Assembly: GCF_036507355.1 (NCBI RefSeq)
Contig: NZ_AP027877.1
DNA from: Escherichia coli
GTDB taxonomy: Bacteria > Pseudomonadota > Gammaproteobacteria > Enterobacterales > Enterobacteriaceae
Direction: 5' to 3' (one strand)
Length of the DNA: 64,000 nucleotides
Shown: positions 48,001-51,000 of the stretch, piece after piece
How the letters are laid out: each line of letters begins with the position of its first letter
Position numbering within the stretch: position 1 is the stretch's first letter
Position numbers: made by a program

Positions 48001-51000
48001 TGCTACGTGACAAGCTGGAGCCGTACTTTGCGGCAGGTCGTTACCAGGATGCGCTGGTCGAACTGGCAGAGCTGCGTGAACCGGTCGATGCCTTCTTCGA
48101 TAAAGTGATGGTCATGGTTGATGACAAAGAATTGCGTATCAACCGTCTGACCATGCTGGAGAAACTGCGCGAACTGTTCCTGCGCGTTGCGGATATTTCG
48201 CTGTTGCAGTAATAACGCCGTTATTAAAAAGCCTGCCATCTGGCAGGCTTTTTTTATCGCTAAATAATACAGCAACCTTTAATAATCTTCTGCTGAATAA
48301 AGATTATCTCATATATTAATTTTATGAGATTTTTTTAGGATTATATCAAGGAGAAGAAACAAACTTATTAAGCTAGAATAGCCACGGGTGCTTGAGACTG
48401 TTTGTCTCAGGTATTCACCGAAAGGCAGACAGAGAAAAGCCCCACCTGACTATAAATCAAAGTGTGTACTGCCCCTCTATGCATAGACACCATAAGGTTA
48501 GCCTCTTACTCGTTGGAAATCAACACAGGGGGCTGGGAATGCCGCAGAAATATAGATTGCTTTCTTTAATAGTGATTTGTTTCACGCTTTTATTTTTCAC
48601 CTGGATGATAAGAGATTCACTGTGTGAATTGCATATTAAACAGGGGAGTTATGAGCTGGCGGCATTTTTAGCCTGCAATTTGAAAGAGTAAGAGTCTTCG
48701 GCGGGAAGTTATTCCCGCCTTTCTTACGGCGTTGCGCATTCTCATTGCACCCAAATTTATTTTTCACAAAAATAATACTAGATTTTATTACGCGATCGAT
48801 TATTTATTTCCTGAAAAACAAATAAAAAAATCCCCGCCAAATGGCAGGGATCTTAGATTCTGTGCTTTTAAGCAGAGATTACAGGCTGGTTACGTTACCA
48901 GCTGCCGGGCCTTTAGCGCCGCTTTCGATGGTGAAGGACACTTTCTGACCTTCGTCCAGAGATTTGTAACCATCGTTCTGGATAGCAGAGAAGTGTACGA
49001 ACACGTCTTTAGAGCCATCGTCAGGAGTGATGAAGCCGAAGCCTTTGTCAGCGTTGAACCATTTTACGATACCAGTCATTTTACCAGACATAGTGTATTA
49101 CCTTTAATAATTAAGTGTGCCTTTCGGCGATATGGCGTGCTTTACAGATTTTGAAGCGTTAAAGGAATGTGCACTACGAGGGGTATCAACGATAACTCTT
49201 GAAGGGACTTGCCTTACTACACTGCTTTAATGGTCTGTACGTCAAACCGTTGATGTGCATTAAGCCACGCATTGGCGGGTGATGCAACAATTATTTTTCA
49301 TATTTATGATTAATCGGTTGGAAAACGGTCCTGTCATCAGGACCGTAAACAGCAATAAAGTGGATAAAAGTCTATTCCATCAACTGCTTACTTAATGCCG
49401 GGTTGGCTTGAATCAAACGCATCAATTTTAGTTCGGCACTTGAAGGCTTCACGCGTCTGGATTCCCATTCTTTTACCATGGCGACTGATACGCCCAAAAC
49501 CCGGGCGAAATCATCGATTTTTAATCCTGTCCCTTTTCGTAACTGCTCAATTTCGGTACAGGACGTTGTTCTGTGCGTCAGGGTAATTTTCTGCGTTTCA
49601 TCTTTAAAAACAATCTGTTCCAGGCTGCTCAACAGCTCATGCATTGGATCTTTATATTCCATTGAAAACTCCTCAAATCACACTGCGGGATCGTGAATTG
49701 CATCGAAGCTCATTAAGAATAGTCGGGAAAAGCAGACACAGCGGGGTGAAGTCAGGGCATGCTCTGGCTATGATTCGATTCAGCCAGTCATTTAGCGTGA
49801 CTTATAGCCACCTAACGATCTGATAAATGCCGATATATCTCTTACCACTCCTGGTTTGTAAAGATTTCGAAAATCTAACCTTCTGCGAAGGCGTAAATCT
49901 CTGGCTACAAAAAAGGCAACGGCAATATCATTTTTTAACAATGAAACAACAAATTAACCTTGTTTCATTTTCTCCATGATTTTACCAGGAAGATTACGTA
50001 GAAAGGGTATCCTGCAAGCCTGTCCTGGACTATCCTTGTCACGTCAGACACGCGTGTGTCGTTGTGCGCTTTTTTTGGGTGAAAGGAGTAAGAAAATGGC
50101 GACAGGAAAGTCCTGCTCTCGCTGGTTTGCGCCTCTTGCGGCGTTATTAATGGTAGTTAGCCTGAGTGGGTGTTTTGATAAAGAAGGCGATCAGCGTAAA
50201 GCGTTTATCGACTTCCTGCAGAATACAGTGATGCGTAGCGGTGAACGTCTACCAACCCTGACTGCCGATCAGAAAAAACAGTTTGGTCCTTTTGTCTCTG
50301 ATTACGCGATTCTGTATGGTTATTCTCAGCAGGTGAATCAGGCGATGGATTCCGGTCTGCGCCCGGTTGTAGACAGCGTTAACGCAATTCGCGTACCGCA
50401 GGATTACGTTACGCAAAGCGGTCCGCTGCGTGAAATGAATGGTTCGCTGGGTGTGCTGGCGCAACAACTGCAAAATGCGAAGTTGCAGGCCGATGCTGCG
50501 CACTCTGCGCTAAAACAGAGTGATGACCTGAAACCGGTCTTTGATCAGGCATTCACCAAAGTGGTAACGACGCCAGCTGATGCATTGCAACCGTTGATTC
50601 CGGCGGCACAAACTTTCACGCAACAACTAGTGATGGTTGGAGACTACATTGCCCAACAAGGTACTCAGGTGAGCTTTGTAGCAAATGGCATCCAGTTCCC
50701 GACTTCACAGCAGGCAAGTGAATATAACAAACTGATTGCGCCATTACCGGCACAGCATCAGGCGTTTAATCAGGCCTGGACTACAGCAGTTACTGCAACC
50801 CAATAAAGAGTAAAAGCCCGAGCGATTATCGGGCTTTACTCCACGCAGTCGCGGCTTAGTCCGCGACGTGCGGATTCACACAGTTCTTCTCAACCTTTCC
50901 TTGTAACGCATCAATCAAATTATCCACGGCACAGGCGGCCATGCCATAACGCGTCTCATGGGTGGCAGATCCAATATGCGGTACTGCGACGACGTTGGCC

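What the first reader, a model, noticed from the sequence alone, without database searches (positions are those of the whole stretch)
48390..48700. Uninterrupted hokA type I toxin locus between glyS and cspA
The 50-aa HokA reading frame is complete and lies in a 666-bp intergenic region with no IS sequence. In K-12, as I recall, this locus is associated with an IS150 insertion and is thought to be inactive. An intact copy could still function as a toxin-antitoxin module, with the antisense Sok RNA and overlapping mok frame expected just upstream; I could not map those precisely.
Basis: partly seen in the sequence, partly recalled or inferred. Interest (0 to 1): 0.4.

Follow-up and report, generated by a model that had tools for sequence, protein, structure and literature searches.

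The report
hokA toxin locus with IS150 scar
This is the well-known chromosomal hokA/sokA toxin-antitoxin locus of E. coli, without the IS150 element that interrupts it in K-12. It carries an 8-base leftover of a lost IS150 that removed the ribosome-binding site needed to make the toxin, so it is probably silent.

Summary
A complete 50-aa HokA frame (48539-48691, +; Pfam Hok/Gef E = 9e-24) lies in a 666-bp glyS-cspA spacer with no IS element. All hok/sok family parts can be placed: hokA promoter and mRNA 5' end (tac), ucb, an in-frame mok start (48479), an antisense sokA promoter and RNA, the 3' hairpin and fbi.

This is not new. IS-free hokA/sokA was described in 1999, and 2831 of 5426 complete E. 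coli genomes have an uninterrupted spacer.

The copy is not pristine. Canonical alleles read CAAAGTGAGGCCCC; the window reads CAAAGTG-TGTACTGC-CCC. TGTACTGC is the terminal 8 nt of IS150. Other genomes carry a full IS150 at exactly this junction, and deleting 1442 nt from one of them reproduces the window's junction exactly. The allele is rare (28-31 genomes, mostly O145:H28) and derived.

The scar removes the GAGG mok Shine-Dalgarno (anti-SD pairing -7.8 to -0.4 kcal/mol) and half of the SokA terminator stem (-21.0 to -11.2 kcal/mol). It costs 20-25 bits against the Rfam model. Single GAGG substitutions inactivate R1 hok.

Most likely this is a healed but translationally silent hokA locus. 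It is ordinary, with one neat evolutionary detail.

The parts
48374..48379 (+). hokA promoter -10 (TAGAAT); inferred transcription start at about 48386
   Evidence: Aligns with the TATGAT -10 of the R1-type hok promoter. Sequence checked. The consensus scan did not flag it because the -35 is weak. Inferred by homology.
48386..48541 (+). hokA mRNA leader, from the 5' end to the hok AUG
   Evidence: Rfam RF01794 matches full length (1-157/157), 99.4 bits, E = 5e-23. Canonical alleles score 119.6-124.9 bits.
48386..48397 (+). tac element (5' end, GGGTGCTTGAGA)
   Evidence: In the MFE fold of the full-length RNA, nt 1-6 and 8-12 pair with the 3' fbi. The R1-type control does the same.
48437..48443 (+). 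ucb / anti-SD-like box (AAGCCCC)
   Evidence: Pairs with the 5' tac in the fold of the 3'-truncated RNA. This matches the tac/ucb stem described for R1 (PMC9841398). Inferred.
48465..48472 (+). IS150 terminal remnant (TGTACTGC). It replaces the canonical AG of the GAGG mok SD.
   Evidence: Identical to nt 1-8 of the IS150 IRR end. Same junction as full IS150 copies in L018 and L019. A simulated 1442-nt deletion reproduces the junction. Absent from 8 of 10 sampled uninterrupted alleles.
48479..48691 (+). mokA-equivalent frame (ATG 48479), in frame with hokA, 70 aa
   Evidence: Aligns with the R1-type mok ATG. Translation. Its SD is missing: anti-SD duplex -0.4 versus -7.8 kcal/mol in canonical alleles.
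48435..48491 (-). Predicted SokA antisense RNA (about 57 nt here, 53 nt in canonical alleles); ends approximate
   Evidence: Positional homology to R1 Sok. The canonical form folds to -18.7 kcal/mol, z = -3.0. The window form folds to -10.1 kcal/mol, z = 0.04. A 52-nt hokA target is reported in PMC3562002.
48495..48523 (-). sokA promoter: -35 TTGATT (rc 48518-48523), 17-nt spacer, -10 TAACCT (rc 48495-48500)
   Evidence: Lies at the position homologous to TTGCGC-17-TATCCT in the R1-type locus. The hexamers are invariant in all sampled alleles. Not flagged by the consensus scan.
48501..48505 (+). dcb-like box (GCCTC), the 3' partner of the lost GAGGC
   Evidence: The Rfam consensus helix GaGGC...GCCuC shows non-canonical marks in the window. 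The helix is predicted in a canonical allele.
48539..48691 (+). hokA toxin ORF (50 aa), with its own SD AGGGGG at 48527-48532
   Evidence: Pfam HOK_GEF E = 9.1e-24. Protein identical to HokA of O145:H28 RM13514. C29 and C46 are conserved.
48700..48719 (+). 3' stem-loop (GGCGGGAAGTTATTCCCGCC), the expected 3' end of the processed, active mRNA
   Evidence: Terminator-like hairpin with 8 bp, 6 of them GC. Folds robustly. Aligns with the R1 GGCGGGCGCAGGCCCGCC hairpin.
48741..48752 (+). fbi element (CTCATTGCACCC)
   Evidence: Duplex with tac is -17.2 kcal/mol, and the two are paired in the MFE of the full-length RNA.

Best explanation
The region is the chromosomal hokA/sokA (mokA) type I toxin-antitoxin locus of E. 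coli, in an allele found mainly in O145:H28 strains.

**Architecture.** It has the full hok-family layout. A weak promoter makes a roughly 370-nt or longer mRNA whose 5' end (tac) pairs with a 3' fbi box and keeps it closed. After 3' trimming back to the 48700-48719 hairpin, the leader should refold and expose the mok ribosome-binding site. Ribosomes starting at mok would then read into hok, while the antisense SokA RNA blocks this step.

**History of this copy.** It is a healed ex-IS150 allele. IS150 inserted after CAAAGTG in the leader and was later lost by a deletion of about 1.44 kb between GC microhomologies. That deletion left 8 nt of the IS end (TGTACTGC) and removed 9 nt of host sequence (AAGTGAGGC). 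The net change from the canonical sequence is AG replaced by TGTACT.

**Consequence.** The change abolishes the GAGG mok Shine-Dalgarno. It also abolishes the helix that forms the SD/ucb and SD/dcb switches on the mRNA and the terminator stem of SokA on the other strand. The locus is therefore most likely transcribed but translationally silent: an intact toxin ORF without a working entry site for ribosomes.

**Shown:** the sequence features, their homology, the scar and its origin path, and the predicted energetic effects.

**Inferred:** the transcript ends, loss of translation, and lack of toxicity.
For: **Identity**
- Pfam HOK_GEF E = 9e-24 and Rfam RF01794 at 99 bits.
- RefSeq annotates hokA at this place in the matching genomes.

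**Architecture**
- Alignment to an R1-type hok/sok locus.
- tac/fbi are paired in the MFE fold, as in the R1-type control.
- The 3' hairpin is present.

**Scar**
- 8 of 10 uninterrupted alleles read GTGAG----GC against the window's GTGTGTACTGC.
- The exact scar 40-mer occurs in 28 of 5426 genomes, plus 3 variants. The canonical 42-mer occurs in about 1000.
- Outside the scar, the window is 2 differences from canonical strain 119.
- Full IS150 copies sit at CAAAGTG|TGTACTGCACCC... with the right flank AAGTGAGGCCCC.
- The simulated deletion gives the window junction exactly.

**Effect**
- Anti-SD duplex falls from -7.8 to -0.4 kcal/mol, and the SokA hairpin from -21.0 to -11.2 kcal/mol.
- SokA fold z-score goes from -3.0 to 0.04.
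- The Rfam score is 20-25 bits lower than for canonical alleles.
- GAGG and mok-start substitutions are loss-of-function in R1 hok (PMC9841398).
Against: - No expression data exist for this allele.
- hokA keeps its own good SD (AGGGGG, -9.4 kcal/mol), so mok-independent translation is not excluded.
- The dependence of hok on mok translation was shown for R1, not for hokA.
- The HokA ORF is still intact here and in the one O145:H28 genome examined (L016), which might hint at retained function. It may equally reflect recency, and the close relative strain 48 already has a frameshift.
- The sampled IS150-bearing allele with the right junction (L019) differs from the window at 14 other spacer positions, so the direct parent was not found.
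Confidence: 0.75

Rival explanations
1. This is a fully functional hok/sok-type toxin-antitoxin module. SokA represses mokA/hokA translation, and HokA kills or arrests cells when SokA decays.
For: - The ORF is intact and both conserved cysteines are kept.
- The hokA and sokA promoter hexamers, tac/fbi and the 3' hairpin are all present.
- HokA is toxic when overexpressed (bioRxiv 10.1101/2025.08.07.668861).
Against: - The mok SD is destroyed and the SokA terminator stem is disrupted.
- GAGG point mutants of R1 hok are loss-of-function.
- Canonical IS-free hokA of E. coli C gave no post-segregational killing and no rifampicin activation.
Confidence: 0.1
2. The AG-to-TGTACT change is an ordinary small indel unrelated to IS150, and the 8-nt identity to the IS end is coincidence. 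The functional consequences would be the same.
For: An 8-mer match is not rare genome-wide. A 12-mer IR pattern with 1 mismatch is expected about 0.6 times per 64 kb by chance.
Against: - The match begins at the very nucleotide where full IS150 copies begin in hundreds of genomes, in the same orientation.
- One deletion with GC microhomology converts that allele into the window's sequence exactly.
- Related variants differ only in the number of TG repeats at the same junction.
Confidence: 0.1
3. The TGTACTG-containing allele is ancestral, and its resemblance to the IS150 end attracted IS150 to this site (IR-targeted insertion).
For: - IS150 is found here in both orientations and in at least 2539 genomes, so this is a hot spot.
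- Some IS3-family elements are known, from general knowledge, to target IR-like sequences.
Against: - IS150-bearing alleles have the complete canonical right flank AAGTGAGGCCCC with an AAG duplication, so they derive from the canonical allele, not the scar allele.
- The canonical GAGG matches the Rfam family consensus and R1.
- The scar allele is rare and nested 2 differences from a canonical haplotype.
Confidence: 0.04

Closest known systems
hokA/sokA locus of E. coli C and ECOR strains (Pedersen & Gerdes 1999, as cited in bioRxiv 10.1101/2025.08.07.668861 and PMC3562002)
   Same: Same chromosomal position (glyS-cspA), the same toxin, no IS element, and the same mok/sok/tac/fbi layout.
   Different: The window's leader has TGTACT in place of the AG of the mok SD. 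Canonical alleles (for example strains 119, K56-43 and ECO2947) keep GAGG and a stable SokA hairpin. I could not read the 1999 paper or fetch the E. coli C sequence itself.
hokA::IS150 of E. coli K-12 MG1655
   Same: Same locus. HokA differs at 2 residues (E36G, K47N). Both alleles were hit by IS150 at the same leader position.
   Different: K-12 retains the 1443-bp IS150 (IRL end first) and lacks 42 bp of the window (48465-48506), including the mok ATG and the sokA -10. The window has lost the IS and keeps those elements, but not the mok SD.
hok/sok of plasmid R1 (R1-type copy from pMTY1886_IncFII used here)
   Same: Hok/Gef toxin, GAGG-7nt-AUG mok initiation region (in canonical hokA), antisense promoter at the homologous place, tac/fbi closure, and a 3' GC hairpin.
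   Different: The locus is chromosomal and the leader is shorter. The terminator after fbi is not a GC-rich hairpin; the only candidates are an AU hairpin at 48757-48775 and the cspA bidirectional terminator at 48827-48854. No post-segregational killing was reported for hokA.
hokA allele of E. coli O145:H28 (e.g. RM13514, NZ_CP006027) and strain 48 (NZ_CP166879)
   Same: Same scar and same HokA protein. The spacer is 99.55-99.7% identical.
   Different: There are 2-3 point differences. Strain 48 has a 1-nt deletion at window 48665 that truncates HokA to 43 aa.

Membership tests
[quoted passage not shown] | Hok/Gef-family toxin ORF of about 50 aa with an N-terminal hydrophobic helix and conserved cysteines | tested here: met
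   PF01848 E = 9.1e-24, profile 1-42/42. C29 and C46 are present, and the protein aligns with R1 Hok.
[quoted passage not shown] | Conserved structured leader RNA upstream of hok | tested here: met
   RF01794 at 99.4 bits against a gathering score of 59, full length. This is 20-25 bits below canonical hokA alleles.
[quoted passage not shown] | mok reading frame starting upstream of hok and overlapping it | tested here: met
   ATG 48479, 60 nt upstream and in frame, with no stop. It aligns with the R1-type mok ATG.
[quoted passage not shown] | mok Shine-Dalgarno (GAGG) about 7 nt upstream of the mok AUG, which also forms the SD/ucb and SD/dcb switch helices | tested here: not met
   GAGG is replaced by GTGTACTG. 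The anti-SD duplex is -0.4 against -7.8 kcal/mol. The Rfam helix shows non-canonical marks.
[quoted passage not shown] | Antisense sok promoter inside the mok/hok 5' region | tested here: inconclusive
   TTGATT-17-TAACCT lies at the position homologous to R1 TTGCGC-17-TATCCT and is invariant among alleles. It falls below the consensus-scan threshold, and no transcript data are available.
[quoted passage not shown] | Sok RNA with a stable terminator stem-loop | tested here: not met
   The window's SokA folds to -10.1 kcal/mol, z = 0.04. The canonical form folds to -18.7 kcal/mol, z = -3.0.
[quoted passage not shown] | Long-range 5' tac / 3' fbi pairing, and a stable 3' hairpin marking the processed end | tested here: met
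   nt 1-12 pair with 48741-48752 in the MFE fold, duplex -17.2 kcal/mol, as in the R1-type control. Hairpin at 48700-48719.
[quoted passage not shown] | Toxicity of Hok and repression by Sok; post-segregational killing | not testable with these tools
   Literature only. K-12 HokA is toxic on overexpression, and E. coli C hokA gave no post-segregational killing.
IS150 (IS3 family) insertion element | 1443-bp element with terminal inverted repeats and a frameshifted transposase | tested here: not met
   Only 8 nt of one end remain (48465-48472). There is no other IR match in the window. Full copies in L001, L003, L004 and L018-L020 were used for comparison.

The most novel reading that the evidence does not exclude
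The scar did not simply kill the locus but rewired it. The mok SD, the SD/ucb and SD/dcb switches and a stable SokA are gone, but the hokA ORF, its own strong SD (AGGGGG), the promoter and tac/fbi are intact. HokA in O145:H28-type strains could then be translated directly and be controlled only by mRNA closure and 3' processing. That would be a Sok/Mok-independent hok variant kept by selection. More modestly, the locus would be a natural, datable example of near-precise IS150 loss, showing an insertion-then-scar route by which chromosomal type I toxins decay.
Probability: 0.08. Interest if true: 0.45.

Novelty: already known. Interest (0 to 1): 0.17.

Why it matters
There is little at stake for the main claim. 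Uninterrupted hokA is the commonest state in E. coli, it is annotated in RefSeq, and it was studied 25 years ago.

The useful points are practical:
- An intact toxin ORF with no IS element does not mean an intact type I TA locus, because the regulatory RNA must be checked base by base.
- The hokA leader is an IS150 hot spot. About 30% of complete genomes carry the element in one orientation, about 17% in the other, and about 0.6% carry a scar.
- The window's lineage shows that such insertions can be lost again, leaving a footprint that permanently removes the mok ribosome-binding site.

This fits the view that chromosomal hok loci are decaying relics. It also gives a simple marker allele for the O145:H28 group.

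Tried and rejected
- **Original paper:** I tried to read Pedersen & Gerdes 1999 (PMID 10361310), but it is not held. Its results are cited second-hand.
- **Promoter scan:** the consensus promoter scan found neither the hokA nor the sokA promoter. Both score about 7/12 to consensus, as does the R1-type sok promoter, so they are placed by homology only.
- **Weak Rfam hits:** sub-threshold hits at 48156-48335 (STnc370, Phe/Trp leaders, istR and others) all sit on the glyS terminator hairpin and were dismissed as terminator look-alikes.
- **Direct parent:** L019 has the right junction but 14 other mismatches in the spacer. L003 and L004 lack the extra TG. Both were rejected as the direct parent of the scar allele.
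- **O157:H7 link:** O157:H7 TR01 carries a scar variant, but it groups with ET350 and PapRG, and typical O157:H7 genomes did not appear. No conclusion was drawn about O157:H7.
- **Compensatory change:** I looked for compensatory change in tac/fbi among alleles. NR341 has a G-to-A change in fbi with no compensating change, so there is no covariation support either way.

Full report
**What is there**

The window is an E. coli chromosome segment.
- glyS ends at 48212 (+).
- cspA lies at 48879-49091 on the - strand, with its thermoregulator mRNA (Rfam RF01766, 500 bits) at 48824-49251.
- The spacer between them is 666 bp.
- It holds a 50-aa ORF, 48539-48691 (+). This is a full-length Hok/Gef family match (PF01848, E = 9.1e-24).
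- The ORF is identical to the HokA annotated in O145:H28 strain RM13514.
- It differs from K-12 HokA at two residues (E36G, K47N). G36 matches R1 Hok, and both cysteines (C29, C46) are kept.
- No IS element is present.

**How common it is**

- The spacer matches 5425 of 5426 complete E. coli genomes, always on the chromosome.
- 2831 genomes have at least 80% of it in one piece.
- RefSeq annotates hokA there.
- The literature already describes an IS-free hokA/sokA locus from E. coli C. It reports that this locus did not mediate post-segregational killing and was not activated by rifampicin. It also reports that HokA is toxic when overexpressed (bioRxiv 10.1101/2025.08.07.668861; PMC3562002).

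The finding as stated is already known.

**Anatomy**

The Rfam 'sok' model RF01794 matches the + strand at 48386-48541 (99.4 bits). As built, that model covers the sense-strand hok leader and ends at the hok AUG. I aligned the window to an R1-type hok/sok locus (L017) and folded the RNAs. That places the following elements:
- **hokA promoter:** -10 TAGAAT at 48374-48379, with the mRNA 5' end at about 48386.
- **tac:** 48386-48397.
- **ucb-like box:** AAGCCCC at 48437-48443. It pairs with tac in the truncated RNA.
- **mok-equivalent start:** ATG at 48479, 60 nt upstream of the hok ATG and in frame with it (70 aa).
- **dcb-like box:** GCCTC at 48501-48505.
- **sokA promoter (- strand):** TTGATT-17-TAACCT, the reverse complement of 48518-48523 and 48495-48500. 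It sits at the position homologous to R1's TTGCGC-17-TATCCT.
- **Predicted SokA RNA:** roughly 48491 down to 48435.
- **hokA SD:** AGGGGG at 48527-48532.
- **3' hairpin:** 48700-48719.
- **fbi:** CTCATTGCACCC at 48741-48752.

In the minimum-energy fold of the full-length RNA, nt 1-12 pair with fbi. The R1-type control does the same. Promoters and transcript ends are inferred by homology and were not measured.

**K-12**

- MG1655 has a 1443-bp IS150 (IRL end first) after CAAAGTT.
- It has no target duplication.
- It lacks the 42 bp corresponding to window 48465-48506, which includes the mok ATG and the sokA -10.

The IS lies upstream of the ORF, inside the regulatory region.

**The unexpected part**

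Other genomes carry IS150 in the opposite orientation with an AAG duplication. Their flanks reconstruct an empty site that reads CAAAGTGAGGCCCC. Eight of ten sampled uninterrupted alleles read exactly that. The window and its closest relative (strain 48) read CAAAGTGTGTACTGCCCC, so the AG is replaced by TGTACT.

TGTACTGC is the first 8 nt of the IS150 IRR end. I tested an IS150 origin in five ways.
1. **Frequency.** I designed a 40-mer in which every 28-nt seed word spans the change. It hits 28 genomes exactly and 3 with extra TG units, out of 5426. Most are O145:H28. The canonical version hits about 1000.
2. **Polarity.** Outside the change, the window differs at only 2 spacer positions from strain 119, which is canonical. 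The canonical GAGGC...GCCUC helix is also the Rfam and R1 consensus. The change is therefore derived.
3. **Missing link.** Querying CAAAGTG followed by the IS150 IRR end gives many exact hits. In L018 and L019 the structure is ...CAAAGTG|TGTACTGCACCC...IS150...GGGGTCAGTACA|AAGTGAGGC....
4. **Reconstruction.** From L019 I deleted everything from IS nt 9 through AAGTGAGGC. That is 1442 nt, with GC at both ends. The result reproduces the window's 45-nt junction exactly.
5. **Limit.** L019 is not the direct parent. Its spacer differs at 14 other positions.

I conclude that the window carries an IS150 excision scar (probability about 0.8). A chance indel, or an ancestral IR-like target, are weaker alternatives.

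**Consequence**

The replaced AG is the core of the GAGG mok Shine-Dalgarno, which lies 7 nt upstream of the mok AUG as in R1.

| Measure | Canonical alleles | Window-type alleles |
|---|---|---|
| Pairing with the 16S anti-SD | -7.8 kcal/mol | -0.4 kcal/mol |
| SokA RNA fold, script | -21.0 kcal/mol | -11.2 kcal/mol |
| SokA RNA fold, with shuffles | -18.7 kcal/mol, z = -3.0 | -10.1 kcal/mol, z = 0.04 |
| Rfam RF01794 score | 119.6-124.9 bits | 97.1-99.4 bits |

- The same bases form one arm of the helix that, on the opposite strand, is the SokA terminator stem. This is why SokA stability falls as well.
- For R1 hok, a saturation screen found single substitutions in this GAGG (G105T, A106G/T) and in the mok start codon among loss-of-function mutations (PMC9841398).
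- By homology, mokA/hokA translation from this allele should be largely lost. That step is inferred, not shown.
- hokA keeps its own SD (-9.4 kcal/mol), so direct translation is not excluded.

**Population picture of the hot spot**

| State | Complete genomes |
|---|---|
| IS150 in the K-12 orientation at this junction | 1638 |
| IS150 in the opposite orientation | 901 |
| Uninterrupted spacer | 2831 |
| Scar allele (a subset of the uninterrupted genomes) | 28-31 |

Recurrent IS150 insertion next to hok/sok loci (hokC, hokE, mokB) has also been seen in experimental evolution of E. coli B (PMC5419217).

**Verdict**

- It is already known and common.
- The suggestion that it is an intact, possibly functional module is only partly supported. 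This allele is a secondarily healed ex-IS150 copy that has lost the mok ribosome-binding site and SokA structure.
- Interest is low. The scar is a tidy strain-level detail and a caution for annotating type I TA loci.

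Noticed in passing
window 48668-48739 (-): A 23-codon ORF (MRNAVRKAGITSRRRLLLFQIAG) lies antisense to the 3' end of hokA. It corresponds to the small protein YsaE annotated in K-12 and to 'hypothetical protein' in other RefSeq genomes.
   Followed up: partly
hokA leader at window ~48461-48465; loci L001, L003, L004, L018, L019, L020: IS150 occupies the same few nucleotides of the hokA leader in both orientations and on several spacer haplotypes: 1638 and 901 of 5426 genomes. The apparent target duplication is 3 bp (AAG) in L003/L004 and 5 bp (AAGTG) in L018/L019, and K-12 has none. Independent hits versus rearrangement of one ancestral insertion were not resolved.
   Followed up: partly
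L013 (O157:H7 TR01), L014 (PapRG-06-5), L015 (ET350), around locus position 455-470: These are scar variants with an extra TG (CAAAGTGTGTGTACTG, or CAAGTGTGTGTACTG). They sit on a spacer haplotype 6-7 differences from the window. Either the scar is older than it looks, or it moved by recombination, or it arose twice.
   Followed up: partly
L002 (strain 48) = window 48665; L008 (2015C-3905) = window 48690: Uninterrupted alleles show further decay. A 1-nt deletion truncates HokA to 43 aa in strain 48. In 2015C-3905 the stop codon is lost (TAA to TTA) and the gene is annotated as a pseudogene.
   Followed up: partly
L005 (NRZ88308) 2085-2555, equivalent to window ~48790-48830: One genome has an insertion of about 390 bp between hokA and cspA. 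It carries an ORF annotated as yidD (membrane protein insertion efficiency factor).
   Followed up: no
window 48879-49091 (-) and matching loci: RefSeq/PGAP names this gene cspE in most of the matching genomes. Its position and the cspA thermoregulator RNA (RF01766, 500 bits) show that it is cspA.
   Followed up: no
window 29601-29643 (+): Rfam match to ES036 (CssrF) sRNA, 46.1 bits against a gathering score of 37.6. It is unrelated to the finding.
   Followed up: no
window 48753-48860 (+): After fbi there is no GC-rich intrinsic terminator like the one in R1. The only candidates for the hokA mRNA 3' end are an 8-bp A/U hairpin (48757-48775) and the cspA terminator read in reverse (48827-48854). 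The full-length 3' end is therefore uncertain.
   Followed up: partly
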